DNA of 24,000 nucleotides, from assembly GCA_035501495.1 (NCBI GenBank), contig DATJWB010000117.1:33955-57954 (forward strand), written 5' to 3'. Below the pieces are notes generated by a model. It had not been told where the DNA came from, did no database searches, and saw only the letters and a list, made by a program, of their open reading frames with translations. The DNA is from Bryobacteraceae bacterium. Its GTDB lineage: Bacteria > Acidobacteriota > Terriglobia > Bryobacterales > Bryobacteraceae. The position numbers and the translations under genes are program-made. Below are positions 366-22,219 of this stretch, piece by piece (position 1 is the stretch's first letter; each line of letters opens with the position of its first letter).

Positions 366-1205
366 TCACGGCACCAGTGCCCGCATCACGATCCAGGACT
401 TCTCGAGCGGAGTCAGCCGCACACGATGCGTGAAGACGTCGTAGTTGGACCGTTCGATGCGATCGAGCAGCCCCGAGTAAATCGATACCAGCGCCAACAA
501 CGATGGCCTGCTCCGCGGATGGATCAGGTCGAGCAACGGCGCGGATTCGTTGTAATAGGCGCGCGCCCGCGCCGCCTCGAAGCGCATCAATTCCAGAAAC
601 GCCTCGCTGCGATTGCCGGCTGCCAGATCCTGCTCGGTGACATGGAAGCGCTCCAGGTCTTCGACCGGCAGGTACACGCGGCCGTTGCCGGAGTCCTCGC
701 GAATGTCCCGCAGGATGTTCGTCAACTGGAATGCGACCCCGCACTTCTCCGCCAACGGCAGGGCGCTGCGCGTATCGAAGCCGAAAATGTGGATGACGGT
801 CAGCCCCACCACGGAGGCCACCTGGTAACAGTAGCGATACAGTTCGGGAAACGTCTGGAAGCGGCGTGGCTCCAGGTCCGACGCCACGCCGTCGATCATC
901 TCGCGGAAATACTCGTGTGGGATGCCGAATCGCCGCACCGTGTGATGGAATGCGGGCCACACGGGATGGCCGCTGAACCGGCCCTCCAGCGCGTCTTCGG
1001 TTTCCGCGCGCCACCGCTCGATGGCCGCCCGGGTCGCGCCGGGCTCATCGCTCAAATCGTCGCAGTATCGCATGAACGCGTAGATCGCGCACATCGCCTT
1101 GCGTTGTTGCGGCGAGAGCAGCAGGAACGAATAGTAGAAATTCTTGGCCCGGGTGCGCGCCACCCGCCGGCAGTATTCGTACGACGTGTGAATCGCGCTC
1201 TTCAT
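366..1205 (-). CDS. hpnD: Presqualene diphosphate synthase HpnD (squalene/phytoene synthase family)
   Basis: C-terminal 279 codons of track ORF 366..1688. The ATG at 1205-1203 gives MKSAIHTSYEYCRRVARTRAKNFYYSF. Asp-rich motifs are YCDDLSD and QLTNILRDIREDSGNGRVYLP. The start overlaps the hpnC stop by 4 nt (ATGA). The upstream 161 codons of the track ORF are Arg/Ala/Gly-rich and overlap hpnC, so they are rejected. Confidence 0.9.
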   Translation of the reverse strand: MKSAIHTSYEYCRRVARTRAKNFYYSFLLLSPQQRKAMCAIYAFMRYCDDLSDEPGATRAAIERWRAETEDALEGRFSGHPVWPAFHHTVRRFGIPHEYFREMIDGVASDLEPRRFQTFPELYRYCYQVASVVGLTVIHIFGFDTRSALPLAEKCGVAFQLTNILRDIREDSGNGRVYLPVEDLERFHVTEQDLAAGNRSEAFLELMRFEAARARAYYNESAPLLDLIHPRSRPSLLALVSIYSGLLDRIERSNYDVFTHRVRLTPLEKSWIVMRALVP

Positions 1206-2119
1206 GCCGCGCGCTGGAATGCCAGGCGCGCCAGCGAGCCCAGCAGCAGCCGGACGCGCTCGGCCTTGGAAATCGCCGGACGGGAGCGCAGCACGTCGTA
1301 GCCGTGCTGTTCGATCTTGTGGAGGACGTGCAGGCCGCCCCGGCTGAACAGGTCGAGATCGAGCGCCAGCCGCCGGTTCACCATCCCGATGAGCGGCAGG
1401 CCCTCCAGAAAAAGCCCACGGGCCTTCCCGACAATTTCGCGCATCACCTCGCGAAACGCCGCTGTGAATCGATGCGCGAAAAGTTCCTCCAGGGTATAAC
1501 CGTGCCGCCTCATCACATCCAGCGGAATATACACCCGATCCTTGAGCAAGTCTACGGTCACGTCCTGCCAGAAGTTGGCCAGTTGCAGCGCCGTGCAGGT
1601 GGCATCCGACAGCCGCTGCCGCCCCTCGTCCGAGTAGCCGCAGAGATACAGCACCAGCCGGCCGACGGGATTTGCCGAGTTGCGGCAATACCCGAACAAC
1701 TCATCCCAGTTCGCGTAGCGCGTGACCGTCTGATCCTGAACGAACGCATCGATCAGGTCGGCGAAAGGCTGCCGCGGGATCCCGTATTGCTTCACGGTGG
1801 GGCCGAGCGCCACCAGGACCGGATGAGTCGCGCGGCCCGCGTACATCTCGTCGAGCTCGCTGCGCCACCACCCCAGCAGCCGCAGACTCTCGTCGCAGTT
1901 CCCGGTCTCGTCGCCCAGGTCATCCGCCCAGCGGCAATACGAATAGACGTTGTAGAAATCCTGATGCAGCCGCTTGGGGAGCAGGAAGCTCGCCACGTGA
2001 AAGTTCTCGTAGTGATGGGTCGCCAGCCAGCGCGTGTAAGCCTGCGCCTCCGCCAGCGAATAGGCCTGACGCATGGCCTCGGGCGAACGCACGAACTCGA
2101 CTGGAGGAAGAGGCATCAT
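1202..2119 (-). CDS. hpnC: Hydroxysqualene synthase HpnC (squalene/phytoene synthase family)
   Basis: 305-aa ORF with HYENFHVASFLLPKRL, YCRWADDLGDE and LQLANFWQDVTVDLLKDRVYIPLD, the pattern I associate with HpnC. It sits immediately upstream of and overlaps hpnD. Confidence 0.9.
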   Translation of the reverse strand: MMPLPPVEFVRSPEAMRQAYSLAEAQAYTRWLATHHYENFHVASFLLPKRLHQDFYNVYSYCRWADDLGDETGNCDESLRLLGWWRSELDEMYAGRATHPVLVALGPTVKQYGIPRQPFADLIDAFVQDQTVTRYANWDELFGYCRNSANPVGRLVLYLCGYSDEGRQRLSDATCTALQLANFWQDVTVDLLKDRVYIPLDVMRRHGYTLEELFAHRFTAAFREVMREIVGKARGLFLEGLPLIGMVNRRLALDLDLFSRGGLHVLHKIEQHGYDVLRSRPAISKAERVRLLLGSLARLAFQRAA

Positions 2120-2142: not shown

Positions 2143-3171
2143 TTACGGAACGATCGCGGTCTTCAGGTGCCCGTTGTGGCTCATCAGGTGGCGCATCACT
2201 TCCAGGAGATTGGCCAGCGGCTCCTCGCTGTTGACGAAGAACGATGCGGTGATCTGCCCCGCATAAACCAAATCCAGCGCCTTCTGCACGTATGCCGGCG
2301 TGTGGTGGAAACTCGCTTTGCACGTAATCTCGGAATAGTGCAGCAGGGCGGTGTCGAGGTTCACGGTGCTCTCGTTCGGGCAGCCGCCAAAGAAGTTCAC
2401 CGTTCCGCCGCGCCGCACCATGTTGACCGCCCACTCCCACGTCTGCGGCTGTCCCACGGCTTCGATGGCGATATCCACACCTCGACCGTGTGTGAGATCG
2501 CGGATGGCTTTGACCGGATCCGAGCCGTCGGTGGCTACGACTAACTCGTCGGCGCCGAGCGCTTCGGCGCGCTCCAGTTGCGTCCTGCGGCGGCCCACCG
2601 CAATCACACGGCATCCATAGAGCTTCGCGAGCTTGGCGAACATCAGGCCGATGGGGCCCAGCCCGATGATTGCGATGGTGTCGCCGGGCCGCGGCGCCGC
2701 TTCGTCAAAACCGCGGACCACGCAGGCCAGCGGCTCCGCCAACGCCGCGTCGCGATAGCCGATGTGGTCCGGAATCAGGTAGGTATTGCTCTCCACGATG
2801 CGCGCGGGAATGCGGATGTATTCGGCGTAGGCGCCGTTGTTGAACAACAGGTCCTCGCAGAGATTTTCGAGACCGCGCCGGCAGAAAAAGCACTTTTCGC
2901 ACGGAGCGGAATTGGCTGCTACCACACGTTGTCCTACGGAGAACCTGGTGACACCCCCGCCAACAGCCACCACATCTCCCGCCAACTCGTGGCCGAAAAC
3001 GGCTGGGGGCACGATCATGCGCGCATGATATCCGCGCCGGAAAACCTTGACGTCCGTGCCGCACGTCAGCGCCACTTTTACCCTGACAAGAATGTCGCCG
3101 CGATCGATTGCAGGAACGGCTACGGGCTCTACCTGCAAGTGTTCTTTGCCGTAAAGCACGGCCGCCATCAT
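2143..3171 (-). CDS. MDR-superfamily zinc-dependent dehydrogenase, polyol/sorbitol/threonine-dehydrogenase-like (copy 2 of a tandem pair)
   Basis: Catalytic-site region is LTCGTD plus FGHELAG. Structural zinc motif is C-x2-C-x2-C-x7-C (APCEKCFFCRRGLENLC). Rossmann motif is IIGLGPIGL. Start placed at ATG 3171 (MMAAVLYG), 11 nt after the upstream stop; the track start 3192 is a GTG that would overlap the upstream gene. Confidence 0.85.
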   Translation of the reverse strand: MMAAVLYGKEHLQVEPVAVPAIDRGDILVRVKVALTCGTDVKVFRRGYHARMIVPPAVFGHELAGDVVAVGGGVTRFSVGQRVVAANSAPCEKCFFCRRGLENLCEDLLFNNGAYAEYIRIPARIVESNTYLIPDHIGYRDAALAEPLACVVRGFDEAAPRPGDTIAIIGLGPIGLMFAKLAKLYGCRVIAVGRRRTQLERAEALGADELVVATDGSDPVKAIRDLTHGRGVDIAIEAVGQPQTWEWAVNMVRRGGTVNFFGGCPNESTVNLDTALLHYSEITCKASFHHTPAYVQKALDLVYAGQITASFFVNSEEPLANLLEVMRHLMSHNGHLKTAIVP

Positions 3172-3182
3172 GCGGTTATTCA

Positions 3183-4238
3183 CTATGACCACCTCTGTGG
3201 TTGAACGATTATTTTCAGCGATTTAGGTCCTGGATGCAAGGCCATATCGAAACCTGAACGGATTTTAACCAGGGGCAGACGATGCGAAATTAACTCCTCG
3301 AGCGGCAATTCTCCGCCAAATACGAGATCCGCGGATTCCTGTTGAAGATCTACTGATGCACTATAACATCCGAAGAGAGTTCGCTCACCCACACAGATGT
3401 CCGCACCGGACGTTTCGATGCGCTCGGTTGCCGAAGTCTGTGCAAAAAGCAGGATGCGGGAACCGGGTCGCGAGCATGCGATCGCCTGATCGACAATCCG
3501 CGGTACGGAAGCCGCCACGATGACCAGGTCCGCGCCCCGGCCGTTAGTAAGCGACTTCACTTGTGAGGCAACGTCCACCGCTCGCGGGTCCCAGGTGAAC
3601 TTCGCCCCGCACCGCGCCGATACTGCCAATCGCTCGGCAATCGTATCGGTAACCGCGACCTGCGCGCCGGAGCGGCGCACCAGCATCGTGAACATCAATC
3701 CGATGGGGCCTTGCCCCGTCACCACCACGAAATCCTCGGGCTGTGGATCGCATTGCACCACCGCTTTCAAACAGGTGTTCAGCGGCTCCACGAGAGTGGC
3801 TCGATCGAACGATATGCCTTCGGGTATCCTTTCGACACCCCGATCGACAATCCAGTCCATCACCCGAACATACTGCGCAAATCCTCCGCCCGCGGGCTCA
3901 AAACCGGCGGTGATCCCCACCTTCTTGTACTGCGGGCACTGTGCATAGGTCTTGCGGTGACAATAGAAACACTCCATACACGGAATGTGGTGGAAAGCCA
4001 CAACGCGGTCGCCGGGTCGAAACTTCACCACGCCCGCGCCCGCCGCAACCACGACTCCCGCGGTCTCGTGCCCATAGACACGGGGCGGCGCCAACAGGTT
4101 ATGCTCAATCTTCTTAAGATCGGTGTGGCAGATGCCGCAGGCTTCCACCCGGATTAGAATTTCGCCGCGCTGAATTGCAGGAGTGGGGATCTCCTCGACA
4201 TTCACCACACTCTGCCCGCGATACACCGCTGCGTGCAT
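3183..4238 (-). CDS. MDR-superfamily zinc-dependent dehydrogenase, polyol/sorbitol/threonine-dehydrogenase-like (copy 1 of a tandem pair)
   Basis: Catalytic-site region is EACGICHTD plus YGHETAG. Structural zinc motif is IPCMECFYCHRKTYAQC (C-x2-C-x2-C-x7-C). Rossmann motif is VTGQGPIGL. Start placed at ATG 4238 (MHAAVYRG), 22 nt after the hpnG stop; the track start 4280 is a TTG overlapping hpnG. Confidence 0.85.
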   Translation of the reverse strand: MHAAVYRGQSVVNVEEIPTPAIQRGEILIRVEACGICHTDLKKIEHNLLAPPRVYGHETAGVVVAAGAGVVKFRPGDRVVAFHHIPCMECFYCHRKTYAQCPQYKKVGITAGFEPAGGGFAQYVRVMDWIVDRGVERIPEGISFDRATLVEPLNTCLKAVVQCDPQPEDFVVVTGQGPIGLMFTMLVRRSGAQVAVTDTIAERLAVSARCGAKFTWDPRAVDVASQVKSLTNGRGADLVIVAASVPRIVDQAIACSRPGSRILLFAQTSATERIETSGADICVGERTLFGCYSASVDLQQESADLVFGGELPLEELISHRLPLVKIRSGFDMALHPGPKSLKIIVQPQRWS

Positions 4239-4260: not shown

Positions 4261-4965
4261 TCAGAATCGGCAGTCAGCAAAGAACTCTCCCAGTGAATGC
4301 GCAGCCCGGATACAGCGTTGCCGCAACCGGAGTAACTCCGGAAGGCGGACCGTCGGACGAGTCAAACTTCTACGTAAGATAAGCATTGTATCGAAGTGTC
4401 CGTCCGGCCGGAGAGCAGAATTGAAGTCATTCGCCATAGTTTCGCCTGCCAGATCCGTGACAGCTTTAACACAATAGAACGGTAACCCCAAGGACTGTGT
4501 CCGGCCGGCAACCCCGGCGGCCTCCATTTCCACCACACAGGCGCCCGTGGACCGAAGGCGCCGCTTCTCCTCGAAGGTCTGCGCGATGCGGTCGAGTGAG
4601 CAGACCACGCCGCGCCGCCGTACCGGCCCGTCAACTGGCTGGCATGCGAACGCCGCCTGTGCCGCTTGCCCCACCGTTTTCGCTACTGAGGTGCCCACCA
4701 CGATGTCACCGCTCTCCAGGTCGCCCTCGAGCGCCCCGCAGAAGCCCAGACTGACAACCGCATGGGGGCGAAAATCCGCCGCCGCGTCTACCGCCGCCGC
4801 CGCCCGCTTCCAACCCACCCCGTTGGCAGTCAGCAGGACGTCATGCCCGCCCAGCCTCGCCGAACGCGTCCAATCCGTGGTCGAAGACTCTCGACGCGCT
4901 TGTAGCGTGCTTGCCAGAATGCCGGTGAATTCCATGCGGTCGGACGCCACGAATAAGATCCTCAT
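4261..4965 (-). CDS. hpnG: Hopanoid-associated phosphorylase/nucleosidase HpnG (PNP_UDP family)
   Basis: MRILFVASDRMEF..., SLGFCGAL, GDIVVG and VVEMEAAGVA are MTA/SAH-nucleosidase-like motifs. The gene sits directly after hpnA with a TAATG stop/start overlap (4967-4963). The track ORF start at 5019 would lie inside hpnA. Confidence 0.8.
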   Translation of the reverse strand: MRILFVASDRMEFTGILASTLQARRESSTTDWTRSARLGGHDVLLTANGVGWKRAAAAVDAAADFRPHAVVSLGFCGALEGDLESGDIVVGTSVAKTVGQAAQAAFACQPVDGPVRRRGVVCSLDRIAQTFEEKRRLRSTGACVVEMEAAGVAGRTQSLGLPFYCVKAVTDLAGETMANDFNSALRPDGHFDTMLILRRSLTRPTVRLPELLRLRQRCIRAAHSLGEFFADCRF

Positions 4966-5966
4966 TACGCCGCGGTCGGGCGCGCCGTGCGGTGGTCTGC
5001 CCCGCGGGCGCGAAACCAATCGACGGCGCGACGGAGGGCCGTTTCGGCGGGTCCGGGATGGAAACCCAGCTCGCGCCCCGCCTTCTCATGCGTCACCCAC
5101 ATCTTCTTCCGCGCCATGCGCACGCCGTTCAGCGGGACGCGCGGCGGCACGCCCGTGACCGACGCCCATGCCGTGCTGCAGGCGCCGGCACACAACGCCA
5201 CCGCGTACGGGAGCCGGATTGCCGGCGCCTTGCGCCCGGTGATCTGAGCCAGCTTCTGCAGAATCTGCGCGAGCGTCAGGTTCTCCGATCCGAGAATGTA
5301 GCGCTCCCCGATCCGCCCGCGCTCGCATGCCTGCCAGTGACCCTCGGCCGTGTCGCGTACATCTACCACGTTGAGACCGGTATCGATGAACGCCGGCATG
5401 TCGCCATTCAGGAAATCCACGACAATCTTGCCTGTGGGCGTGGGTTTCACATCGTGATCGCCGATGGGAGCAGTCGGGTTGACAATTACGACCGGCAGTC
5501 CGTCGCGCGCGTATTCCAACGCCACGGCTTCGGCCATAAATTTGGAGCGCTTGTAGTCGCCCACCATGTCGGCGAGGGAAACGGGTGTCTCTTCGTCGCC
5601 GAGGCCATCATGCGGAATCCCGATGCACCCCACGGTGCTGGTGTAGACGACGCGCTCCACGCCCGCGGTGTGGGCGGCTTCGAGCAGATTGTGCGTGCCA
5701 TCGACATTGCACTCGTAAAGGTCGCGCGGCTCTTTGGCCCAAAGCCGGTAGTCCGCGGCCACATGGAAGATGAGTCCGCACCCCGAGACAGCACGTTCCA
5801 CCGAAGCGGCATCCCGAAGATCGCCAGTCACAATCTCGACATCGAGATCATTGACGCGGCTGCCCGCCCGCACCAGCACCCGCACGGGAAAGCCCCGTTC
5901 GCGGAGCACGCGCGCGACATGCCATCCCAGAAAGCCCGAAGCTCCGGTAACGAGGGCGGGCTTCAT
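4965..5966 (-). CDS. hpnA: Hopanoid-associated NAD-dependent epimerase/dehydratase-family SDR HpnA
   Basis: N-terminus is MKPALVTGASGFLG (GxxGxxG). DYKRSK provides the YxxxK motif. Size and position between hpnH and hpnG match the hpnA context. Confidence 0.85.
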   Translation of the reverse strand: MKPALVTGASGFLGWHVARVLRERGFPVRVLVRAGSRVNDLDVEIVTGDLRDAASVERAVSGCGLIFHVAADYRLWAKEPRDLYECNVDGTHNLLEAAHTAGVERVVYTSTVGCIGIPHDGLGDEETPVSLADMVGDYKRSKFMAEAVALEYARDGLPVVIVNPTAPIGDHDVKPTPTGKIVVDFLNGDMPAFIDTGLNVVDVRDTAEGHWQACERGRIGERYILGSENLTLAQILQKLAQITGRKAPAIRLPYAVALCAGACSTAWASVTGVPPRVPLNGVRMARKKMWVTHEKAGRELGFHPGPAETALRRAVDWFRARGADHRTARPTAA

Positions 5967-6090: not shown

Positions 6091-7197
6091 TTACCTTAAA
6101 GTCCATGCCAGCATCTTCAGATTGTCGGCCAGCCCTACATTAATACCCAGCGCGGCCGACGGCTCGAAGCCACAATGCACCATGCAGTGCTCGCAGCGCG
6201 GATCGTTGCCCTGTCCGTAGCTCTCCCACGGCGTCTCGGTCATCAGCCCTTCAAAGGTCTTGTAGTGGCCGTCGGTAATCAGGTAGCACGGGCCCTTCCA
6301 TCCCTTCACGTTGTAGGTCGGATTGCCCCATGCCGTGCACGGCATGTCGTGCTTGCCCTTCAGGAACTCGAGATAGACCGGCGTCTGGCGGATCGGATAC
6401 TTCTTCGCCAGCCGGTCGATGTCCTTGAACTTTTCGTGGATGTCGTCGCGAGTCAGAAAAATCTCGCGATCGTTGACCGCCGAGTATCCGTACGCCGGCG
6501 CGATCTGGTGGCCGTCCACGCCCAGCGTCCCCAGGTACTCAAAAAGCTCCTCCACCTCGCGCATGTCGGTCTCTTTGTAGACGGTGGTGTTCGTGCACAC
6601 CAGAAATCCGGCTGCCTTCGCCCGCTTGATCCCTTCGATGGCCTCGCGGAAGACGCCTTCCTTTTCCACCGCGATGTCGTGGTTCTTCTCCATGCCATCC
6701 AGGTGCACGTTGAAGTAGAAGCGCTTGTCGGGAGTAAATTCGCGCAGACGCTTCTGGATGAACATGCCGTTCGTGCAGAGGTAGATGTGGCGGTTGCGCT
6801 CCAGAATCCCCTCCACCAGCTCGCCGATCTGCGGGTACATCATCGGCTCGCCGCCGCAGATCGAAACTACCGGAGCGCCGCACTCGTCCACCGCTGCCAG
6901 GCATTCCTCCAGAGGAACGCGCTCCGTAATCGTGGACTCGTACTCGCGGATTCGACCGCATCCGGTACAGGTCAGATTGCAGGCATGCAGCGGTTCCAGC
7001 ATGAGGACGATCGGAAACCGCTTGTTGATCATGGGATGAGGCTGGCGCTTTTCCCCGGTCTTCGGCGGCAGGATCCGAAACGGATTGGAAGGATCCGCCG
7101 CGCGCACCGCGTTCTTCTGCCACTCAGGCCGCGGCCGCATCTTGTTCCTGATAATGTATCCGGCCAGTTCAGCGGTCATCGACAGGGGAAATTTCAT
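6091..7197 (-). CDS. hpnH: Adenosylhopane synthase HpnH (radical SAM)
   Basis: FPIVLMLEPLHACNLTCTGCGRI carries the CxxxCxxC radical-SAM motif in the HpnH-type context. The C-terminal Cys-rich region is CEHCMVHCGFEP. The start is 3 nt after the shc stop. Confidence 0.95.
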   Translation of the reverse strand: MKFPLSMTAELAGYIIRNKMRPRPEWQKNAVRAADPSNPFRILPPKTGEKRQPHPMINKRFPIVLMLEPLHACNLTCTGCGRIREYESTITERVPLEECLAAVDECGAPVVSICGGEPMMYPQIGELVEGILERNRHIYLCTNGMFIQKRLREFTPDKRFYFNVHLDGMEKNHDIAVEKEGVFREAIEGIKRAKAAGFLVCTNTTVYKETDMREVEELFEYLGTLGVDGHQIAPAYGYSAVNDREIFLTRDDIHEKFKDIDRLAKKYPIRQTPVYLEFLKGKHDMPCTAWGNPTYNVKGWKGPCYLITDGHYKTFEGLMTETPWESYGQGNDPRCEHCMVHCGFEPSAALGINVGLADNLKMLAWTLR

Positions 7198-7200
7198 AAG

Positions 7201-9126
7201 CTATCCATTCGAGTTTGCCCGGGCCTTCACGAACGAAGACAACGCGAGTAGCGGGAAATAGTCCTTGTACAGATGGTAGTTGAGATAGAAAACTTTGGGA
7301 AATCCGGTGCCGGTGGCCAGCTTTTCGTTCCAGCCGCCATCCGGGCGCTGAGTTTCCAGCAGATATTCGATGCCGTGCTGCACGCTCAAGCTGTTGGAGT
7401 CGCCCCCGGCAATCAGCCCCAGAATCGCCCACGCCGTTTGGGAAGGCGTGCTCGGACCCGAAACGAATCCGCCGTTGTTGTAGCTGGCGCAACTTTCGCC
7501 CCAACCGCCATCGGCATTCTGAATGGATCGCAGCCACTCGCCGGCGCGCAGAATGTGGGCTTCGCGGTCGCTCTCGCCGGAAGCCGCAAGGCCGCGAAGC
7601 GCGAAACACGTGCCGTAGATGTAGGCCACTCCCCAGCGGCCGTACCAGCTTCCATCCGCCTCCTGGTGCTTCACCAGCCACTCCACGCCGCGCCGCACCG
7701 CGCGATGTTCGCTGGGGAGCCCATGCGCCGCTAATGCCTCCAATACGCGCCCGGTGATGTCCGGACACGTCGGGTCGAGCATGGCATTGTGGTCGGCGAA
7801 CGGGACTTTGTTGAGGAATTCCCAGTTGTTGTCGGCATCGAAGGCGGCCCATCCGCCGTCGCCCGACTGCATCGCCAGAAGCCACTCCAGACCTCGCTTA
7901 TGACAGGCCTTCTGCGCTGCGGAGTTCGACCCGGATGTCTCGCTCAGTGCCAGCATCACCATCGCGGTATCGTCGATATCGGGATAATGCTCGTTGTTGT
8001 AGAAGAATGCCCAGCCGGAAGGCTCGGTTTGGGGCCGCTTCACCGACCAATCGCCCTTTCGCCGAACCTCGCGCGCCAATAGCCAGTCGGCCGCCGGGCG
8101 CAGCCTCGAGTGCCTCGCGTCGCTCTGTCCCAGCGCATATGCGCCGATAGCCGTATCCCACACCGGCGAGAAGCATGGCTGGAAGAAGAAGCGCTCGCCA
8201 TCGTCCACCATCAGGTTGTCGAACTCGCGGAGGGCGCGCACGCGCAGTGGATCGTCGGGCGCCAATCCCAGCGCGTCCAGCGCCATCACCGAGTACATCA
8301 TGGGAGGATAAATCGCTCCCAGTCCATCGGAGTGATCCATCCGCTCGATCATCCACTCCCGGGCCTTGGCAATAGCTTTGCGGCGAATAGACCCGATCCC
8401 GTGGCGCTCCCACCACTTCAACACCGCATCGCCGGTCAGGAAGATGTTGTGCCAGGTGAACCACCGGTCGTCCTTCTGAAACGCGGGACTCACTCCCGGC
8501 AGCCAAAGCTCGTCCAACGTGAAACCGGCCGGCACCGGACGCCGCGGGTTGGAAGCATGCACGATGGAAAGCGACACCACGATCGCACGCGTCCACGCCG
8601 ACATCTGATACAGGAACCGGAACGGCATCAGGATCACTTCCGGCGGAATACTGGGACAGTATTGCCGCGGGTACATATCGAACAGGCTCAGATTTACCTT
8701 GACGTAGCTGTTGGTCGCCTGAATTCCGCCCAAGTCGAGGATGCGCTCGCGCAGGCGGACCATCCGGGAATCGTCGCCGTCCAATCCCGCCAGTTTCAGG
8801 GCGAAATAAGCCTTCACCGAAGCATTGACCTCGGAAGGACCGTCCACGTAGATATTAAAACCGCCGTCTGGAAGCTGCCGCGCGAGAATCGAACGCGCCG
8901 CCTTGTCGATCAGCGGCTTGCTTTCCGGCGCCCAAACTCCCGCCACCGGCGGATGCAGCCACAGTTGAAACAGGATGTAATCGGAATCCAGGGTGGTGTC
9001 GGCGGTCAGTTCGGCGCACCAGTGGCCGTCCGGCCGCTGCAGGCTCACCAGGTAGGCCGCCGCGCGGCGCTTCGCCTGTTCGGCGGCCAATTCCAGAGTA
9101 TTGCGAACTTGTAGCGGAGCGCTCAT
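7201..9126 (-). CDS. shc: Squalene-hopene cyclase
   Basis: 641 aa. The catalytic DxDD motif is in YPDIDDTAMVM. Multiple QW repeats are present (QRPDGHW, QSGDGGWAAF, QEADGSWYGRWG, QNADGGWGE, QRPDGGWNE). The start overlaps the ispH stop by 4 nt. Confidence 0.95.
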   Translation of the reverse strand: MSAPLQVRNTLELAAEQAKRRAAAYLVSLQRPDGHWCAELTADTTLDSDYILFQLWLHPPVAGVWAPESKPLIDKAARSILARQLPDGGFNIYVDGPSEVNASVKAYFALKLAGLDGDDSRMVRLRERILDLGGIQATNSYVKVNLSLFDMYPRQYCPSIPPEVILMPFRFLYQMSAWTRAIVVSLSIVHASNPRRPVPAGFTLDELWLPGVSPAFQKDDRWFTWHNIFLTGDAVLKWWERHGIGSIRRKAIAKAREWMIERMDHSDGLGAIYPPMMYSVMALDALGLAPDDPLRVRALREFDNLMVDDGERFFFQPCFSPVWDTAIGAYALGQSDARHSRLRPAADWLLAREVRRKGDWSVKRPQTEPSGWAFFYNNEHYPDIDDTAMVMLALSETSGSNSAAQKACHKRGLEWLLAMQSGDGGWAAFDADNNWEFLNKVPFADHNAMLDPTCPDITGRVLEALAAHGLPSEHRAVRRGVEWLVKHQEADGSWYGRWGVAYIYGTCFALRGLAASGESDREAHILRAGEWLRSIQNADGGWGESCASYNNGGFVSGPSTPSQTAWAILGLIAGGDSNSLSVQHGIEYLLETQRPDGGWNEKLATGTGFPKVFYLNYHLYKDYFPLLALSSFVKARANSNG

Positions 9127-10094
9127 CGGATCGACACGGTCAGTTCGGCGGGCAAAGAGAACCGCACGTCTTCATCCACCAGTTCGATCTCCTCCATCTG
9201 GTGAAAGCCCAGTTTCCGCAGGAATTCGATCAGTTCCTGCACCAAGTGTTCCGGCGCGGAGGCGCCGGCCGTCACGCCAACGTTGCGAATGCCGTTGAGC
9301 CAACCGCCATCCACATCGCTGCGATCGTTCACCAGGAACGAGCGAACTCCGAAATTCTGGCCGACTTCCACCAGGCGCTTGGAGTTCGAACTGTTTTGCG
9401 AGCCGACCACCAGCAGTAACTCGACGTGATCGGAAATCGCCTTCACCGCCATCTGCCGGTTCTCGGTGGCATAACAGATGTCCTGCGCCGGAGGTCCTTC
9501 CACAAACGGAAATCGCTCCTTCAGCCGGTTCACGATGTCGCGCGTCTCATCCAGGCTCAGAGTGGTCTGTGTCAAATACCGGACACGTGTCGGGTCGGGA
9601 AGTTCCAACCGGTCGACATCTTCGACAGTCTCCACCAGGTAGCTCCGCTCCGGCACTTCCCCAAGCGTACCAATCACTTCATCGTGATCTTTGTGGCCGA
9701 TGAGCACAATACTGTAGCCGTCCCTGGCAAACCTCACGGCCTCCAGATGCACTTTGGTGACCAGCGGGCAGGTGGCATCGATCACATCCAACCGCCGCTC
9801 CAGGGCTTGCCTCCGAACCGACGGCGCGACACCGTGGGCGCTGAAGATCGCGCGCGCCCCGTTTGGCACCTCGTCCAGTTCCTCCACGAAGATGGCGCCG
9901 GCCTCTCGCAATTCGTCCACCACATGCTTGTTGTGCACGATCTCCTTGCGCACGTACACAGGCGGACCGTACAGGTCAAGAGCGATCTTCACCACATCGA
10001 TCGCCCGCACTACCCCTGCACAAAAACCGCGCGGCTTAAGCAAAAATATCTTTTTGTCCGCGCCGTGATTCGGTGCGAATAGCTTAAGTGGCAT
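9123..10094 (-). CDS. ispH: 4-hydroxy-3-methylbut-2-enyl diphosphate reductase IspH/LytB
   Basis: PRGFCAGVVRAI, DATCPLVTKVH and DICYATENRQ supply the three conserved Fe-S cysteines. Also present are SAHGV, VVGSQNSSNSKRL and GVTAGASAPE. Start set at ATG 10094 (MPLKLFAP...); the 44 upstream codons of the track ORF have no IspH counterpart. Confidence 0.9.
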   Translation of the reverse strand: MPLKLFAPNHGADKKIFLLKPRGFCAGVVRAIDVVKIALDLYGPPVYVRKEIVHNKHVVDELREAGAIFVEELDEVPNGARAIFSAHGVAPSVRRQALERRLDVIDATCPLVTKVHLEAVRFARDGYSIVLIGHKDHDEVIGTLGEVPERSYLVETVEDVDRLELPDPTRVRYLTQTTLSLDETRDIVNRLKERFPFVEGPPAQDICYATENRQMAVKAISDHVELLLVVGSQNSSNSKRLVEVGQNFGVRSFLVNDRSDVDGGWLNGIRNVGVTAGASAPEHLVQELIEFLRKLGFHQMEEIELVDEDVRFSLPAELTVSIR

Positions 10095-10264
10095 AAAGGG
10101 AGTATTTCTGATTATAGCAGGCAGTACCACCCCACGCACTGGGAAAAACCGTGAATCGCAAGCATTTGGAGTCGAGCGCCGGACGATTTCCAACGCCCGA
10201 ATAGTACTTCCCCAGTCGATTTTCACATAGCTCGTCCGGCGTGATTATGTAAAAAGAGACCATC

Positions 10265-11068: not shown

Positions 11069-11500
11069 CTACCGTCCCGAAGATCCAAATCCACCCGCGC
11101 CGCGCCTCGAGTCGGCCAACTCCCCTTCCACCCACTCCACCGCCTCGTACCGCGACACAATCATCTGCGCGATTCGATCGCCCGCATGGATGGTGTACGG
11201 CTCTTTTCCCAAATTGAGCAGAATCACGCGAATCTCTCCCCGATATCCCGGGTCGATCGTGCCCGGCGTATTGGGGCTTGTGATGGCGTGCCGCAATGCC
11301 AGGCCGCTGCGCGGGCGCACCTGCGCCTCATACCCCGACGGCAGTTCGATCGTCAGCCCCGTCGGCACCAGGCGCGGCACCCCCGGCTCCAGCGTGACCT
11401 CCTCCACGGCGCGCAAATCCATCCCCGCGTCTTCTTCCGGCCCATGTGCGTAACTGGGCAGAAAAGCCTCGGGGTGGATGCGTCGAATTCGGATCCGCAT
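11069..11500 (-). CDS. dut: dUTP diphosphatase (trimeric dUTPase)
   Basis: DAGMDLRA, RPRSGLA, GTIDPGYRGEI and the C-terminal RGAGGFGSSG motif. This is only the last 143 codons of track ORF 11069..12250. An alternative ATG at 11512 would add MIAG. Confidence 0.9.
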   Translation of the reverse strand: MRIRIRRIHPEAFLPSYAHGPEEDAGMDLRAVEEVTLEPGVPRLVPTGLTIELPSGYEAQVRPRSGLALRHAITSPNTPGTIDPGYRGEIRVILLNLGKEPYTIHAGDRIAQMIVSRYEAVEWVEGELADSRRGAGGFGSSGR

Positions 11501-11518
11501 TCCCGCTATCATAGCGTC

Positions 11519-12949
11519 TTGACCCCCACCAAACGCGTCATCACCGTGGCGCCCATGCCGCCCGAAAAGAGCGCCTATGCCCTGGCCCGCTACAGCCGGT
11601 CGCCCGATTCCATCCGCGACTCGATCGCATGGGTTCGCACCCACGACTCGCAGAAATTCCTTGAGAGCTTCTATTTCCAATACGGCCACGCCTCCATCGC
11701 CGACCTCGGCCACACGGTCCTCTGCTTCGAGGGCATTTCCGAACTGGCCGCCACCGAAATCGAGGAGGAGAGCCTCTGGGACGGCCAGGCGAAATCGTCG
11801 CGCTACCAGGACTTCTCGCGTTCCGGCTTCGTGACCCCGCCCGAATTCTCCGCCCCCCAGTCCGAGGCATATCGCGCGGCGGGCGAGCGCCTGCTCCGCG
11901 CCTACAGCCTCGTGAACGAACGCGTCTTCGCCTCTCTTTCGGAGCGCCTGCCCCGCCCTGCGGACATGAAGCCCGAGCCCTACCAGCGGAACCTGGCGGC
12001 CCGTGCCTTCGACGTAGCCCGCTACCTGCTCTTCTGGGGAGTGCCCACCAACGTGGGCCAGGTCACCAGCATCCGAACCCTCGAAAAGCAGATCCGCCGC
12101 CTCAAAGCCTCCCCCTATGCCGAACTGCGCAGCCTCGGAGAGGAGATCGCGCAAGCCTGCGCCGCCGAGCCAGACTGCCGCTGGGATCTCCAATCGGCCT
12201 CCGAACCCCTGGCCCCGACGCTCGCCCGCCACGCCGACCCGGATCAGCACGCAGTGACGTCACGCGAAGACCTGAAGCGCTGGGCCGAGCAGAATCTTCC
12301 GCCAGCGGCTGGAGCATGCTCCGTGCGCGTGGACCTCGTCCGTCCGGCGAATGTACCGGCCGATATCGTGGCCACTCTGCTCTACCCTGTGACCGGCCGC
12401 CCCTTCCGGGAGTTGTACCAGGTGGCGTGCGACTGGAGCGAGGGCCGCCGCGCCGAGGTGATCGATGTGGCGCTGGGCTCGCGCACGCGACGCGACGAAA
12501 TCCTCGCCGGATTCCGCGGCGGGCTCTACGCCTACGATTTCGTCATCGATATCGGCGCGTACCGGGATCTTCACCGCCATCGCCGCTGCCAGAAGTTCCG
12601 TCAGGACTACTCCGGCGACCTGGGCTATGACACGCCTCAACTGGTGCTCGATGCGGGAGCTGCCGAACCGTACGGGGCGGCCATGAACGACGCGTTCGAA
12701 ACCATGCGGACTCTTCCCGCTCCCGGAGCGCACTACCTCCTTCCGTTTGGCGCGCGCTCGCGATTTCTCTTCAAGATGGATTTCGCCGAGGCCGAATATA
12801 TCTCCCAACTCCGCAGCGGCGTGAAAGGCCACTTCTCCTACCGCGAAATCGCCTGGGAGATGAAGTGCAAAATGGAGCAGGTCGAGCCCGAATTGGGCCG
12901 GCTCATCCAGGCAACTCCTCCCTGGGTGGAAGATCCGCTGAAGCGATGA
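11519..12949 (+). CDS. thyX: ThyX-family (Thy1 domain) protein, long two-lobe form; putative FAD-dependent thymidylate synthase
   Basis: The second lobe has DIGAYRDLHRHRRCQ (the RHR motif of ThyX) and LLPFGARSRFLFKMDFAEAEYISQLR. The first lobe is ThyX-like (YGHASIADLGH, SSRY, ARYLLFWGVPTN) but has EEE where RHR is expected. The part of the track ORF upstream of about 11500 overlaps dut and is rejected. The start is uncertain: TTG 11519, GTG 11549 or ATG 11555. Confidence 0.65.
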   Translation: MTPTKRVITVAPMPPEKSAYALARYSRSPDSIRDSIAWVRTHDSQKFLESFYFQYGHASIADLGHTVLCFEGISELAATEIEEESLWDGQAKSSRYQDFSRSGFVTPPEFSAPQSEAYRAAGERLLRAYSLVNERVFASLSERLPRPADMKPEPYQRNLAARAFDVARYLLFWGVPTNVGQVTSIRTLEKQIRRLKASPYAELRSLGEEIAQACAAEPDCRWDLQSASEPLAPTLARHADPDQHAVTSREDLKRWAEQNLPPAAGACSVRVDLVRPANVPADIVATLLYPVTGRPFRELYQVACDWSEGRRAEVIDVALGSRTRRDEILAGFRGGLYAYDFVIDIGAYRDLHRHRRCQKFRQDYSGDLGYDTPQLVLDAGAAEPYGAAMNDAFETMRTLPAPGAHYLLPFGARSRFLFKMDFAEAEYISQLRSGVKGHFSYREIAWEMKCKMEQVEPELGRLIQATPPWVEDPLKR

Positions 12950-13155
12950 TCCTTCAGTTATCCGGCGGCTGCTTGCCGGTGAGGATCAAGTCGGCGAAGA
13001 CGCGCAGCACCCCGATGTATTCGTCATGAGCCTTGCTCTCGGTCCGCAATGCTCGTTGCATTCTACTCCGCGGTAGCATATGCAGCATTTGGGCCACATG
13101 GCTCGACTTCCGCCTGGCGTGTTCCAGTACACTCACGGAGCACCTCTCTTGCGGG

Positions 13156-13215
13156 CGATTGTGGCGCGGGCACTCGTGCCTGGTGTGTGCCGAGACTCCC
13201 TCGGCGCTTGTCGGT
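13156..13215. repeat. Second, partial copy of the intergenic repeat seen at 5969-6025
   Basis: Manual alignment, same orientation. 5969-5994 vs 13156-13182 gives 24 identities with 1 indel and 2 mismatches. Then 6000-6008 = 13190-13198 (9/9), 6011-6020 = 13200-13209 (10/10) and 6021-6025 = 13211-13215 (5/5). The copy contains the perfect palindrome GGCAC-TC-GTGCC (13169-13180) and the hairpin gccgag/ctcggc (13189-13205). Confidence 0.6.
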
Positions 13216-13289
13216 CGCCAGGCGTCTCGCTGGCGCACGTGTGGCGCGCGCGTCACCCTTTCTCGCCTTCGTGAGAATAAGGAGTGCGT

Positions 13290-13499
13290 ATGACCGAAAG
13301 CGATCTCCTCCGGCTATCCGCGGAAGGCGATGAGACCGCTTTCGAAGTCCTCTGCCACCATCACCGCGATGCAGTCTTTCGCTTCGCCTGGGTGCTCACG
13401 AAGTCGCCCGCCGATGCCGAGGAAATTGTCCAGGAATGCTTCCTCACATTGAATCGAAAGGCGGCGGAGTTCGATCCCCGGCGCGCCCACCAGGGCTAA
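13290..13499 (+). pseudogene. ECF (sigma-70 family) sigma factor truncated after region 2
   Basis: MTESDLLRLSAEGDETAFEVLCHHHRDAVFRFAWVLTKSPADAEEIVQECFLTLNRKAAEFDP is a typical ECF region-2 sequence. AAGGAG lies 5 nt upstream of the ATG. The ORF stops after 69 codons, whereas full ECF sigmas are about 170-200 aa, and no region 4 was found downstream. Confidence 0.6.
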
Positions 13500-13533
13500 A
13501 TAGCCCCAATTTCCCTTCCTCGATTATCAAAAT

Positions 13534-13557
13534 GCCTGCAGCAATGCGGGCTTTTTT
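13534..13557 (+). terminator. Candidate intrinsic terminator
   Basis: Stem gcctgca (13534-13540), loop gcaa, stem tgcgggc (13545-13551): 7 bp including one G-U pair. It is followed by TTTTTT (13552-13557). Confidence 0.45.
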
Positions 13558-13651
13558 CGGTCTGGCCCCTTGCCAAACTACCCGGAGCTTGCGGGGGGGC
13601 GAGCTCGTCGCTGATTCCCTCGCTTAAGTTTGGGTGAATGGAATGGCTGAT

Positions 13652-13680
13652 TTGACACCCACACGAATTGTGTGTAGGCT
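13652..13680 (+). promoter_or_regulatory. Candidate sigma-70 promoter of the TA operon with an inverted-repeat operator in the spacer
   Basis: Perfect -35 TTGACA (13652-13657), 17-nt spacer, weak -10 TAGGCT (13675-13680). The inverted repeat CACAC-gaatt-GTGTG (13660-13674) lies in the spacer, as expected for antitoxin autoregulation. Confidence 0.4.
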
Positions 13681-13711
13681 TCAGGTAGAAGATCACGAAT
13701 GCCCAACTCCT

Positions 13712-13981
13712 ATGAGCAAGAGAATCAACATCATGCTCCCGGAAAAGACCTTGGCTGTGCTGGACCGGGTGGCCCCTAAGGGGAGCCGCAGCCGCCTGGT
13801 CTCCGAAGCCGTGCTTCACTTCGTGGAAGCGCAAGGCAAGAAGAGCCTGAGGGAACAGCTGAAAGCAGGCGCCCTGGCTAACGCCGATGAGAATCTGAAG
13901 ATTGCGGCGGCGTGGTTTCCCTTAGAGGAAGAACTATGGCAAAAACCACGCGTCGGCCGCCGGGCCAAAAGCAAAAAGTAA
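13712..13981 (+). CDS. Ribbon-helix-helix (CopG-like) antitoxin
   Basis: MSKRINIMLPEKTLAVLDRVAPKGSRSRLVSEAVLHFVE shows an N-terminal beta-strand followed by two helices, the RHH pattern. It lies directly upstream of and overlaps the MazF-like toxin. The earlier in-frame ATG at 13643 lies upstream of the predicted promoter. Confidence 0.7.
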   Translation: MSKRINIMLPEKTLAVLDRVAPKGSRSRLVSEAVLHFVEAQGKKSLREQLKAGALANADENLKIAAAWFPLEEELWQKPRVGRRAKSKK

Positions 13982-14334
13982 TTCCACTGCTCCGTGGCGA
14001 CGTCTACCTCTGCAGCCTTGATCCCACGATTGGCCACGAAATGAAGAAGACCCGGCCGGCGCTGGTCATTCAGAATGACGTCGGAAACCGCTACAGCTCG
14101 GTAACAATCGTGGCGGCGATCACATCCACCCTCTCTCCCGTTCCGTATCCAGTGGAAGTTGTGGTTGACGCCTCCACTACCAACGGCCTGGGGGTCCGGT
14201 CCTCCATCCGCCTTGACCAGATCCGCAGCGTCGATCGCCAGCGCCTGATCCGGCGGCTGGGCGTACTTGACTCCACAACAATGGCCAAGGTCGACGAAGC
14301 CATCAAGATCAGTTTGGGACTGGTCAGACTATGA
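13936..14334 (+). CDS. mazF: MazF/PemK-family type II toxin endoribonuclease
   Basis: RGDVYLCSLDPTIGHEMKKTRPALVIQNDVGNRYSSVTIVAAITS matches the PemK/MazF signature. The ATG at 13936 is preceded by GAGGAAG. Confidence 0.85.
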   Translation: MAKTTRRPPGQKQKVIPLLRGDVYLCSLDPTIGHEMKKTRPALVIQNDVGNRYSSVTIVAAITSTLSPVPYPVEVVVDASTTNGLGVRSSIRLDQIRSVDRQRLIRRLGVLDSTTMAKVDEAIKISLGLVRL

Positions 14335-22218: not shown

Positions 22219-22219
22219 C

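What the first reader, a model, noticed from the sequence alone, without database searches (positions are those of the whole stretch)
2143..4238. Two tandem MDR zinc dehydrogenases between hpnG and hpnC: candidates for the unassigned ribosylhopane-to-bacteriohopanetetrol reduction
Seen in sequence: two paralogous polyol/sorbitol/threonine-DH-like MDR genes sit inside the hopanoid operon on the same strand. Spacers are only 22, 11 and 23 nt, which leaves no room for their own promoter or terminator. Both keep complete catalytic and structural zinc motifs (C-x2-C-x2-C-x7-C) and a GxGxxG Rossmann motif, and both share the PIGLMF motif. They differ clearly from the AdhP-like MDR gene at 17120-18139. 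Established knowledge: HpnH makes adenosylhopane, and HpnG removes adenine to give ribosylhopane. The open-chain aldehyde of ribosylhopane is reduced with NAD(P)H to bacteriohopanetetrol. To my knowledge no gene has been assigned to that step. Inference: an aldehyde/polyol oxidoreductase placed directly after hpnG fits that step both chemically and positionally. The second copy could act on another side-chain hydroxyl or carbonyl. Caveat: HpnA, an SDR of unclear role, is an alternative candidate.
Basis: partly seen in the sequence, partly recalled or inferred. Interest (0 to 1): 0.75.

Follow-up and report, generated by a model that had tools for sequence, protein, structure and literature searches.

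The report
Conserved dehydrogenase pair in hopanoid operon
Two different zinc dehydrogenase genes sit as a fixed pair inside the hopanoid (bacterial sterol-like lipid) operon of this soil acidobacterium; the same pair recurs next to hopanoid or squalene genes in at least five phyla, which makes it a credible but unproven candidate for the still unassigned reduction that produces bacteriohopanetetrol.

Summary
Two intact zinc MDR dehydrogenase genes (MDR-A 4238..3183, MDR-B 3171..2143, minus strand) lie between hpnG and hpnC in one tightly packed operon: ispH-shc-hpnH-hpnA-hpnG-A-B-hpnC-hpnD.

They are not recent duplicates (31% identity). They are an old two-gene unit. In 166 related loci the first gene is always A-type and the second B-type. 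A keeps an NAD-type acidic residue; B keeps an NADP-type Gly-Arg-Arg.

The pair matches the genes ug1 and ug2 that Sinninghe Damsté et al. (2017) noted in acidobacterial hopanoid clusters, function "not established".

hpnG directly precedes A in 47 of 75 genome loci and 39 of 43 metagenome loci, and hpnG-A-B survives as a trio when the cluster breaks up.

Outside Acidobacteria (Armatimonadota, a "Chlamydiota" MAG, an Omnitrophica MAG) the pair sits next to hpnC-hpnD(-hpnE), never next to hpnG, and sometimes stands alone. By the 2017 paper's account, Chloracidobacterium makes BHT derivatives without ug2.

The idea that the pair reduces ribosylhopane to bacteriohopanetetrol (BHT) is plausible, best for the NADPH-type B, and no gene is yet assigned to that step. 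It is unproven, and the synteny points equally towards squalene synthesis.

The parts
9123..10226 (-). ispH (HMBPP reductase), first gene of the string; its stop overlaps the shc start (ATGA)
   Evidence: NCBIfam NF002189, 459 bits, above cut-off; junction read
7201..9126 (-). shc/hpnF, squalene-hopene cyclase (641 aa)
   Evidence: ORF and translation with QW-type repeats; orthologues at 41-69% identity in the same position in related loci
6091..7197 (-). hpnH, radical SAM adenosylhopane synthase
   Evidence: TIGR03470, 428 bits, above cut-off 225; Pfam Radical_SAM plus DUF3463
4965..5966 (-). hpnA, extended SDR ('hopanoid-associated sugar epimerase'); the rival candidate for the same reduction
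   Evidence: TIGR03466, 484 bits, above cut-off 368
4261..4965 (-). hpnG, nucleosidase/phosphorylase that yields ribosylhopane; its likely ATG at 4965 overlaps the hpnA stop by 1 nt
   Evidence: TIGR03468, 160 bits (best hit, below cut-off 187); Pfam PNP_UDP_1; start read
3183..4238 (-). MDR-A (= ug1 type): zinc MDR dehydrogenase, 351 aa, NAD-type (Asp198 at the end of beta-2), motif CGICHTDLKK, conserved loop TAGFEPAGGGFA
   Evidence: Pfam ADH_N plus ADH_zinc_N; no NCBIfam model reaches its cut-off; Asp or Glu at position 198 in 86 of 86 orthologues; A-type alignment A1
2143..3171 (-). MDR-B (= ug2 type): zinc MDR dehydrogenase, 342 aa, NADP-type (Gly193-Arg194-Arg195), motifs TCGTDVKV and FHHTP
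   Evidence: Pfam ADH_N plus ADH_zinc_N; position 193 is never acidic, and Arg/Lys follows in 58 and Arg in 63 of 70 orthologues; Gly193-Arg194 aligns with Ala199-Arg200 of the NADP(H)-dependent ketose reductase 1e3j
1202..2119 (-). hpnC (hydroxysqualene synthase), 23 nt after MDR-B
   Evidence: TIGR03464, 352 bits, above cut-off 250; junction
366..1205 (-). hpnD (presqualene diphosphate synthase); its ATG at 1205 overlaps the hpnC stop (ATGA)
   Evidence: TIGR03465, 271.5 bits, just below cut-off 278.6 but the best hit; start read

Best explanation
MDR-A and MDR-B are the two members of an old, co-transcribed pair of zinc dehydrogenases (ug1/ug2) dedicated to the hopanoid pathway.

The most likely role is redox chemistry on the polar, ribose-derived C5 side chain that HpnH and HpnG create. 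B is the NADP(H)-type enzyme. It would reduce the open-chain C-35 aldehyde of ribosylhopane to the primary alcohol of bacteriohopanetetrol. A is the NAD(H)-type enzyme. It would be a partner acting on the same head group, as a second redox step or as a hetero-oligomer subunit.

Shown: the gene anatomy, the operon packing, the pair's conservation, its linkage to hpn genes, and the cofactor motifs. Inferred: the substrate, the direction of each reaction, and any physical complex.
For: 1. One operon with 1-nt to 23-nt junctions and no terminator: hpnA-hpnG-A-B-hpnC-hpnD.
2. The pair is a unit. In Armatimonadota, TARA marine, 'Chlamydiota', Omnitrophica and soil contigs the first gene is 36-44% identical to A and the second 40-51% identical to B, while A against B is 25-33%.
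3. hpnG immediately precedes A in 47 of 75 and 39 of 43 loci. The trio hpnG-A-B stands alone in L054 and L068. hpnG-B-hpnC occurs without A in L099, L100 and L123.
4. Both score best against polyol, cyclitol and threonine dehydrogenase models (IolM, Tdh, GatD), not against ADH/CAD types. B keeps polar invariant residues (FHHTP) where sorbitol dehydrogenase and ketose reductase have their substrate-binding F-R-Y.
5. B's Gly-Arg-Arg aligns with the NADP-specifying Ala-Arg of ketose reductase 1e3j. A keeps Asp/Glu in 86 of 86 orthologues.
6. No enzyme is assigned to ribosylhopane-to-BHT as of 2025-2026. From memory, the cell-free reduction reported by Bodlenner et al. 2015 used NADPH; I could not read that paper here.
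Against: 1. Outside Acidobacteria the pair is never next to hpnG. It sits beside hpnC-hpnD(-hpnE) in L001, L006, L009, L167 and L168, or alone in L004, L005, L010, L014, L016, L065, L075, L169 and L170. Armatimonadetes are reported to use HpnCDE for C30 carotenoids (PMC9907078).
2. An acidobacterial clade has ispH-hpnA-A-B-hpnD-shc with no hpnG or hpnH within 10 kb.
3. The 2017 paper reports BHT derivatives in Chloracidobacterium and says ug2 is absent there. Neither the genome nor the metagenome scan gave proteobacterial loci, so the pair cannot be the universal reductase.
4. One reduction needs one enzyme, so the role of A stays unexplained.
5. A-like singletons in Verrucomicrobiota have no hpn context.
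6. HpnA is an equally placed oxidoreductase.
Confidence: 0.35

Rival explanations
1. The pair serves the squalene branch (HpnC/HpnD/HpnE) rather than the C35 side chain. It would be an accessory redox function tied to presqualene diphosphate, hydroxysqualene or farnesyl metabolism. Its position after hpnG in Acidobacteria would then be a by-product of operon fusion.
For: - B is followed directly by hpnC or hpnD in 51 of 62 genome loci and 59 of 62 metagenome loci.
- This is the only hpn linkage seen outside Acidobacteria: Armatimonadota L001 and L009, 'Chlamydiota' L167 and L006 (with overlapping stop/start codons), and Omnitrophica L168.
- In L082 and L084 the pair stays with hpnCDE, while hpnG-hpnA-shc-ispH lie inverted 5 kb away.
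Against: - By the 2017 paper's account of Pan et al. [quoted passage not shown] No redox gap is known there.
- Both proteins resemble polyol/threonine dehydrogenases with polar pocket residues, not enzymes for hydrocarbons.
- According to the 2017 paper, ug2 is present in all subdivision 1 and 3 acidobacteria, although four cultivated species lack hpnE or both hpnC and hpnE.
- hpnG-A-B trios exist without hpnC/D nearby (L054, L068).
Confidence: 0.2
2. The pair is a two-step redox module on the finished or nascent polyol side chain, not a simple aldehyde reduction. A (NAD+) would oxidise a hydroxyl or the ribosylhopane lactol, and B (NADPH) would reduce a carbonyl. The result would be epimerisation of a side-chain carbinol (a BHT stereoisomer) or a branch between ribonylhopane (lactone) and BHT.
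For: - The opposite cofactor signatures are strictly conserved in 86 A-type and 70 B-type sequences.
- The tandem order and short or overlapping junctions are strictly kept.
- Both give weak Pfam hits to the C-terminal domain of MDR glucose 1-dehydrogenases, which oxidise sugar lactols.
- Ribonylhopane is reported in some R. palustris mutants (PMC4263297).
- From general knowledge, alternating NADPH reduction and NAD+ oxidation is how fungal pentose catabolism and inositol epimerisation invert carbinol centres.
Against: - No unusual BHT isomer or lactone is reported for Acidobacteria; the 2017 study used Rohmer degradation, which erases side-chain detail.
- One lineage keeps only B in the cluster.
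- The same cross-phylum hpnCD linkage problem applies as for the main explanation.
Confidence: 0.2
3. The pair acts on an ordinary soluble polyol, sugar or amino alcohol with no hopanoid substrate, and it travels with hpn genes only through inherited gene order.
For: - Of 46 genome loci with full 10-kb flanks, 7 have no hpn gene.
- The pair stands alone in a Vicinamibacteria MAG (L016), in groundwater and forest-soil contigs (L169, L170) and in a marine contig (L004).
- A-like singletons occur in Verrucomicrobiota and in a cyanobacterial-type contig (L003).
- Source annotations call these proteins L-iditol 2-dehydrogenase.
Against: - Linkage to hpn genes is kept across lineages whose A proteins are only 41-50% identical and whose tree follows taxonomy. 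Neutral retention over that distance is unlikely.
- Junctions are overlapping or very short.
- No sugar transporter, kinase or catabolic gene recurs beside the pair.
Confidence: 0.15

Closest known systems
ug1 and ug2 of acidobacterial hopanoid clusters (Sinninghe Damsté et al. 2017, Front Microbiol 8:968, PMC5462960)
   Same: ug1 is a Zn-dependent alcohol dehydrogenase of about 370 aa placed after hpnA-hpnG. ug2 is a Zn-binding alcohol dehydrogenase of about 350 aa placed before hpnC-hpnD-hpnE. The window shows exactly this arrangement, with ORFs of 365 and 349 aa.
   Different: That paper treats them as two separate unknown genes of two clusters, gives no function ('not established'), and proposes HpnA for the ribosylhopane reduction. 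New here: they form one conserved A-B unit, they occur in other phyla, and they carry opposite cofactor motifs.
Polyol/threonine dehydrogenase branch of the zinc MDR superfamily (L-threonine 3-dehydrogenase 2dq4/2dfv, sorbitol dehydrogenase 1pl6, NADP(H) ketose reductase 1e3j, IolM, GatD)
   Same: Same two-domain fold by Pfam, same catalytic Cys-His-Glu plus Glu, a structural zinc lobe, and a CGTD motif in B. B shares the NADP-type Ala/Gly-Arg with 1e3j.
   Different: Identity is only about 30%. Every curated NCBIfam cut-off is missed by a wide margin (for example Tdh 165 against 458, IolM 167 against 450). The sorbitol-dehydrogenase substrate residues Arg-Tyr are His-His in B. A has an ADH-like CGICHTD motif and a family-specific TAGFEPAGGG loop.
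HpnA (TIGR03466), the other unassigned oxidoreductase of hopanoid clusters
   Same: An NAD(P)-dependent oxidoreductase of unknown role that directly precedes hpnG or the pair in almost all acidobacterial loci. It has been proposed for the same reduction.
   Different: It belongs to a different superfamily (extended SDR, no zinc). It is absent next to the pair outside Acidobacteria. The 2017 paper cites Schmerk et al. [quoted passage not shown]
Two-enzyme NADPH-reductase / NAD+-dehydrogenase schemes (polyol pathway; fungal L-arabinose pathway; IolG/IolW inositol epimerisation). This comparison comes from general knowledge, not from a test here.
   Same: An NADP(H)-type and an NAD(H)-type dehydrogenase are paired on one polyol or sugar skeleton.
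   Different: Those enzymes act on soluble sugars, and most are not two MDRs encoded in tandem. Nothing here shows that A and B share a substrate.

Membership tests
[quoted passage not shown] | N-terminal GroES-like catalytic domain plus C-terminal Rossmann domain | tested here: met
   Pfam ADH_N (E 5e-25 and 2e-25) and ADH_zinc_N (2e-18 and 3e-28), both above the gathering scores
[quoted passage not shown] | Catalytic zinc ligands (Cys, His-Glu, distal Glu) and four structural-zinc Cys | tested here: met
   A: Cys34, His57-Glu58, Glu152 and C87/C90/C93/C101. B: Cys36, His60-Glu61, Glu144 and C-x2-C-x2-C-x7-C. All are conserved in the 86- and 70-sequence alignments.
[quoted passage not shown] | GxGxxG dinucleotide-binding motif | tested here: met
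   A has GQGPIG and B has GLGPIG; the glycines are invariant
L-threonine 3-dehydrogenase (TIGR00692 / NF003808) | Score above the curated equivalog cut-off | tested here: not met
   B: 165 against 458 and 157 against 380. A: 144 against 458 and 150 against 380.
scyllo-inosose 3-dehydrogenase IolM (NF041097) | Score above the curated equivalog cut-off | tested here: not met
   B 167 and A 155 against a cut-off of 450
Sorbitol / L-iditol 2-dehydrogenase (the name given by JGI to many homologues) | Close similarity to characterised SDH and conservation of its polyol-binding residues (Ser after the zinc Cys; the Phe-Arg-Tyr segment) | tested here: not met
   Solved SDH and xylitol-DH chains match only at E 1e-21 to 1e-26. 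B keeps Thr38 but has His-His where ketose reductase has Arg-Tyr. A has Ile at the Ser position. The residue roles are recalled from the SDH literature.
ug1/ug2 hopanoid-cluster alcohol dehydrogenases of Acidobacteria (PMC5462960) | Zn-ADH of about 370 aa immediately downstream of hpnA-hpnG | tested here: met
   MDR-A (365-aa ORF) lies 22 nt after hpnG. The same order is seen in 47 of 75 and 39 of 43 related loci.
ug1/ug2 hopanoid-cluster alcohol dehydrogenases of Acidobacteria (PMC5462960) | Zn-ADH of about 350 aa immediately upstream of hpnC-hpnD | tested here: met
   MDR-B (349-aa ORF) lies 23 nt before hpnC. The same order is seen in 51 of 62 and 59 of 62 loci.
Ribosylhopane reductase (an activity; no sequence family is defined) | NAD(P)H-dependent conversion of ribosylhopane to bacteriohopanetetrol | not testable with these tools
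   Only indirect evidence exists: position after hpnG, an NADP-type motif in B, and a polyol-DH-like family.
Ribosylhopane reductase (an activity; no sequence family is defined) | Occurs only in genomes that also have hpnH and hpnG | tested here: inconclusive
   Only 10-kb flanks could be read. hpnG or hpnH lie nearby in most acidobacterial loci and hpnH in L167 and L006. Neither appears in Armatimonadota, Omnitrophica, clade-ii or stand-alone loci. The rest of those genomes could not be searched.

The most novel reading that the evidence does not exclude
A and B together form a cross-phylum NAD+/NADPH redox module of hopanoid biosynthesis. It would supply the last unassigned core step (ribosylhopane to BHT). 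Through an oxidation-reduction couple it would also set the oxidation state or stereochemistry of the C-32 to C-35 polyol, giving lactone or stereoisomer BHPs. That would give a genetic marker for side-chain variants that geochemists use as biomarkers.
Probability: 0.2. Interest if true: 0.8.

Novelty: new member of a known kind. Interest (0 to 1): 0.55.

Why it matters
Bacteriohopanepolyols are major bacterial membrane lipids and the source of geohopanes. The enzyme that turns ribosylhopane into bacteriohopanetetrol is still missing from the pathway.

A conserved, easily cloned gene pair that sits right after hpnG in abundant soil Acidobacteria gives a concrete target for testing that step. 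If the pair instead belongs to the HpnCDE squalene branch, it would expose an unrecognised redox requirement there.

Either way, the pair deserves a name and an assay. It has stayed annotated as 'L-iditol 2-dehydrogenase' or 'zinc-binding dehydrogenase' since it was first noticed in 2017.

Tried and rejected
- Fusion proteins as 'Rosetta stone' evidence. The 602-aa hit P0266 is a sugar-1-phosphate nucleotidyltransferase fused to an MDR, with no hopanoid link. P0271 (HpnG C-terminus plus A) and P0314 (A C-terminus plus B) are short fragments of close relatives and most likely frameshift or gene-calling run-throughs. They were given no weight.
- Neighbours of stand-alone pairs and of Verrucomicrobia A-singletons. 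These are RluA, PEP-CTERM proteins, GNAT, PlsC-like acyltransferase, aminopeptidase N and DapA/DapB/aspartokinase. No recurrent metabolic partner emerged. A threonine-aldolase-like gene precedes the pair in one Armatimonadota genome only.
- The metagenome scan seeded with a non-acidobacterial B returned almost only Terriglobales-like soil contigs. It added counts but no new phyla.
- Literature searches for any assignment of these genes or of the reductase found nothing beyond the 2017 paper. I could not retrieve Bodlenner 2015 or Liu 2014.
- Structure prediction was not run. Model coordinates cannot be inspected here, and sequence searches had already placed both proteins among TDH, polyol-DH and ADH structures at about 30% identity.
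Full report
WHAT IS THERE. The window comes from a Bryobacteraceae (Acidobacteriota) metagenome-assembled genome; identical proteins carry that name in public sources. On the minus strand lies one tightly packed gene string:
- ispH (10226..9123)
- shc (9126..7201)
- hpnH (7197..6091)
- hpnA (5966..4965)
- hpnG (4965..4261)
- MDR-A (4238..3183)
- MDR-B (3171..2143)
- hpnC (2119..1202)
- hpnD (1205..366)

The hopanoid genes are identified by NCBIfam models. HpnH, HpnA, HpnC and IspH score above their curated cut-offs. HpnG and HpnD are best hits slightly below theirs. Junctions are a 4-nt overlap (ispH/shc), a 1-nt overlap (hpnA/hpnG), spacers of 22, 11 and 23 nt around the two MDR genes, and a 4-nt overlap (hpnC/hpnD). 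The only longer gap is 124 nt before hpnA. No terminator-like site lies between genes, and the scan found fewer such sites than shuffled sequence gives. The gene after hpnD is a cysteine-synthase-like gene, not hpnE.

Both proteins have the ADH_N and ADH_zinc_N domains, the catalytic Cys/His-Glu/Glu, a C-x2-C-x2-C-x7-C structural-zinc lobe, and GxGxxG inside a shared GPIGLMF. No curated NCBIfam family claims either protein. The best models (IolM, Tdh, GatD) reach 140-167 bits against cut-offs of 380-550. The closest solved structures are threonine dehydrogenases, a Thermus ADH and the NADP(H) ketose reductase, at E 1e-34 to 1e-39 and about 30% identity. The third MDR of the window (17120-18139) is of a different, Ahr/AdhP-like type.

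NOT A RECENT DUPLICATION BUT AN OLD PAIR. A and B share only 31% identity. In loci from an Armatimonadota MAG, a TARA marine contig and two other metagenome contigs, the first gene is 36-44% identical to A and the second 40-51% identical to B, while A-type against B-type stays at 25-33%.

I scanned one genome per GTDB species with an A-type alignment and JGI metagenomes with a B-type alignment. I annotated the 160 loci with the window's own proteins and with HMMs built from them. A is followed by B in 67 of 75 genome loci with enough flank and in 66 of 66 metagenome loci. Two apparent absences of B are frameshifted assemblies. The true exceptions are eight A-like singletons, six of them in MAGs labelled Verrucomicrobiota. 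A rough neighbour-joining tree of A-type proteins follows taxonomy, so the family is old rather than recently exchanged.

OPPOSITE COFACTOR SIGNATURES. At the end of the second Rossmann strand, A-type proteins have Asp (83) or Glu (3) in 86 of 86 sequences. B-type proteins never have an acidic residue there (Gly 40, Val 20, Ala 8 of 70), and Arg/Lys (58 of 70) and then Arg (63 of 70) follow. In the HMMER alignment, B's Gly193-Arg194 lines up with Ala199-Arg200 of the NADP(H)-dependent ketose reductase 1e3j, and with Asp or Glu of the NAD-dependent enzymes 4cpd and 2dfv. By the established rule for Rossmann folds, A should use NAD(H) and B NADP(H). This is an inference from motifs, not a measurement.

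PRIOR ART. Sinninghe Damsté et al. 2017 (PMC5462960) described 'cluster C' as hpnA-hpnG-ug1 and 'cluster A' as ug2-hpnC-hpnD-hpnE. Their Table S1 lists ug1 as a Zn-dependent ADH of about 370 aa and ug2 as a Zn-binding ADH of about 350 aa, both 'not established'. They suggested HpnA, not ug1 or ug2, for the ribosylhopane reduction. The reduction step is still called unestablished in Nov 2025 (PMC12583986). It is drawn as non-enzymatic in an Aug 2026 review (PMC13459092).

WHAT THE SYNTENY SAYS FOR THE PROPOSAL. hpnG immediately precedes A in 47 of 75 genome loci and 39 of 43 metagenome loci. Where the large cluster is broken, hpnG-A-B can remain as a trio (L054, a complete 6.2-Mb chromosome; L068). 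In one lineage B follows hpnG directly and A is missing (L099, L100, L123). Both enzymes resemble polyol, cyclitol and threonine dehydrogenases. B has invariant polar residues (FHHTP) where sorbitol dehydrogenase and ketose reductase bind the polyol. This fits a polar head group better than a hydrocarbon.

WHAT THE SYNTENY SAYS AGAINST IT.
- B is followed by hpnC or hpnD at least as regularly: 51 of 62 and 59 of 62 loci.
- This is the only hpn linkage found outside Acidobacteria. It appears in Armatimonadota (L001, L009), a 'Chlamydiota' MAG and its relative (L167, L006; there with overlapping stop/start codons and a convergent hpnH), and an Omnitrophica MAG (L168, divergent from hpnCDE).
- No hpnG lies near the pair in any of these loci.
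- Armatimonadetes are reported to combine HpnCDE with CrtN/P for C30 carotenoids (PMC9907078), so hpnCDE there need not indicate hopanoids.
- Ten acidobacterial MAGs share ispH-hpnA-A-B-hpnD-shc with no hpnG or hpnH within 10 kb. One of them has a weak HpnG-like gene 8.7 kb away.
- In L082 and L084 the pair stays with hpnCDE, while hpnG-hpnA-shc-ispH are inverted.
- Seven of 46 fully flanked loci have no hpn gene at all.
- The pair also stands alone in groundwater, forest-soil and marine contigs.
- The 2017 paper states that ug2 is absent from Chloracidobacterium thermophilum and cites reported BHT derivatives in that strain. No proteobacterial locus appeared among the best 80 genome loci. The pair therefore cannot be the general ribosylhopane reductase.

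MOST LIKELY MECHANISM. I rate the general statement 'a hopanoid/squalene-pathway-linked MDR heteropair' at about 0.85.

For the specific chemistry I commit, at about 0.35, to side-chain redox after HpnG. B would be the NADPH-dependent enzyme that reduces the C-35 aldehyde of open-chain ribosylhopane to BHT. A would be an NAD-linked partner whose role is open.

The main rivals are:
- a role in the HpnCDE squalene branch (0.2);
- a true two-step oxidation/reduction module that changes the stereochemistry or oxidation state of the polyol, for example ribonylhopane lactone, which is reported in some R. palustris mutants (0.2);
- an unrelated soluble-polyol function that merely hitch-hikes with the hpn genes (0.15).

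HpnA remains an equally placed alternative reductase under any of these.

LIMITS. Only 10-kb flanks could be read, so the absence of hpnH, hpnG or shc from a locus does not mean absence from the genome. Organism labels of MAGs are as deposited, and some are plainly wrong (for example L031 'Gammaproteobacteria', L083 'Klebsiella'). The NADPH dependence of the cell-free reduction (Bodlenner et al. 2015) and the residue roles in sorbitol dehydrogenase and ketose reductase are recalled from memory, not read here.

VERDICT. The finding is real and is a good lead, but it is a new instance of an arrangement published in 2017. Its functional reading is only partly supported. The new elements are the obligate A-B pairing, the NAD/NADP dichotomy, and the cross-phylum linkage to hpnC/hpnD.

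Noticed in passing
L099, L100, L123 (metagenome contigs Ga0326597_10011726, Ga0209343_10002098, Ga0209640_10062933): A lineage with hpnA-hpnG-MDR-B-hpnC-hpnD-hpnE in which MDR-A is missing, so B directly follows hpnG. This suggests that B is the indispensable member of the pair in hpn clusters.
   Followed up: partly
L015, L017-L019, L023-L026, L032, L076: An acidobacterial MAG clade has a compact ispH-hpnA-A-B-hpnD-shc operon with a single SQS_PSY gene of about 290 aa and no hpnC, hpnE, hpnG or hpnH within 10 kb; housekeeping lysine-pathway genes follow. How these organisms get from presqualene diphosphate to squalene is unclear.
   Followed up: partly
L167 (GCA_030699095.1, labelled Chlamydiota) and L006: A-B-hpnC-hpnD with overlapping stop/start codons, a convergent full-length hpnH (478 bits to my HpnH model) and hpnE. 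C35 hopanoid genes in a MAG labelled Chlamydiota would be unusual if the label is right.
   Followed up: no
L001/L002 (Armatimonadota, GCA_028871815.1), 8946-9977: A low-specificity threonine-aldolase-like gene sits directly upstream of the A-B pair and on the same strand. It was seen only in this genome.
   Followed up: no
P0266 (representative-library hit, 602 aa): A natural fusion of a sugar-1-phosphate nucleotidyltransferase domain (residues 1-250) with an A-like MDR (36% identity). This hints that some relatives of the family act on nucleotide-sugar-type substrates.
   Followed up: partly
window 4261-5019: The HpnG ORF extends 18 codons upstream into hpnA. The likely start is the ATG at 4965, which overlaps the hpnA stop by 1 nt. 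HpnG scores below the TIGR03468 cut-off (160 against 187), so acidobacterial HpnG proteins diverge from the model's seed.
   Followed up: partly
window 18306-20547 (+): Two long overlapping plus-strand ORFs in different frames (18306-19595 and 19414-20547) look like one large secreted protein interrupted by a frameshift. The Gly/Ala/Val-rich repetitive C-terminus looks to me like C-terminal domains of Solibacter secreted proteins; that resemblance is recalled, not tested. There are no Pfam hits at 1e-5.
   Followed up: no
window 20560-23347 (-): Two adjacent minus-strand ORFs (552 aa and 375 aa, 1 nt apart) have no Pfam or NCBIfam hit. They could be real orphan genes or artefacts of high G+C content.
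   Followed up: no
window 11069-14334: A dUTPase-like C-terminus (ORF 11069-12250, minus strand; recognised by eye from the translation, not tested) overlaps in antisense the 5' part of a long ThyX (Thy1) ORF (11186-12949, plus strand). A MazF/PemK toxin gene lies at 13912-14334. An Omnitrophica locus (L168) also has a PemK toxin between hpnCDE and the pair, probably by coincidence.
   Followed up: no
L031, L063, L083 (genome collection records): MAGs labelled Gammaproteobacteria, Chitinophaga pinensis and Klebsiella sp. carry loci that by protein identity (for example IspH 77% to the window) and gene order are acidobacterial or verrucomicrobial. These are likely binning or labelling errors.
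   Followed up: no
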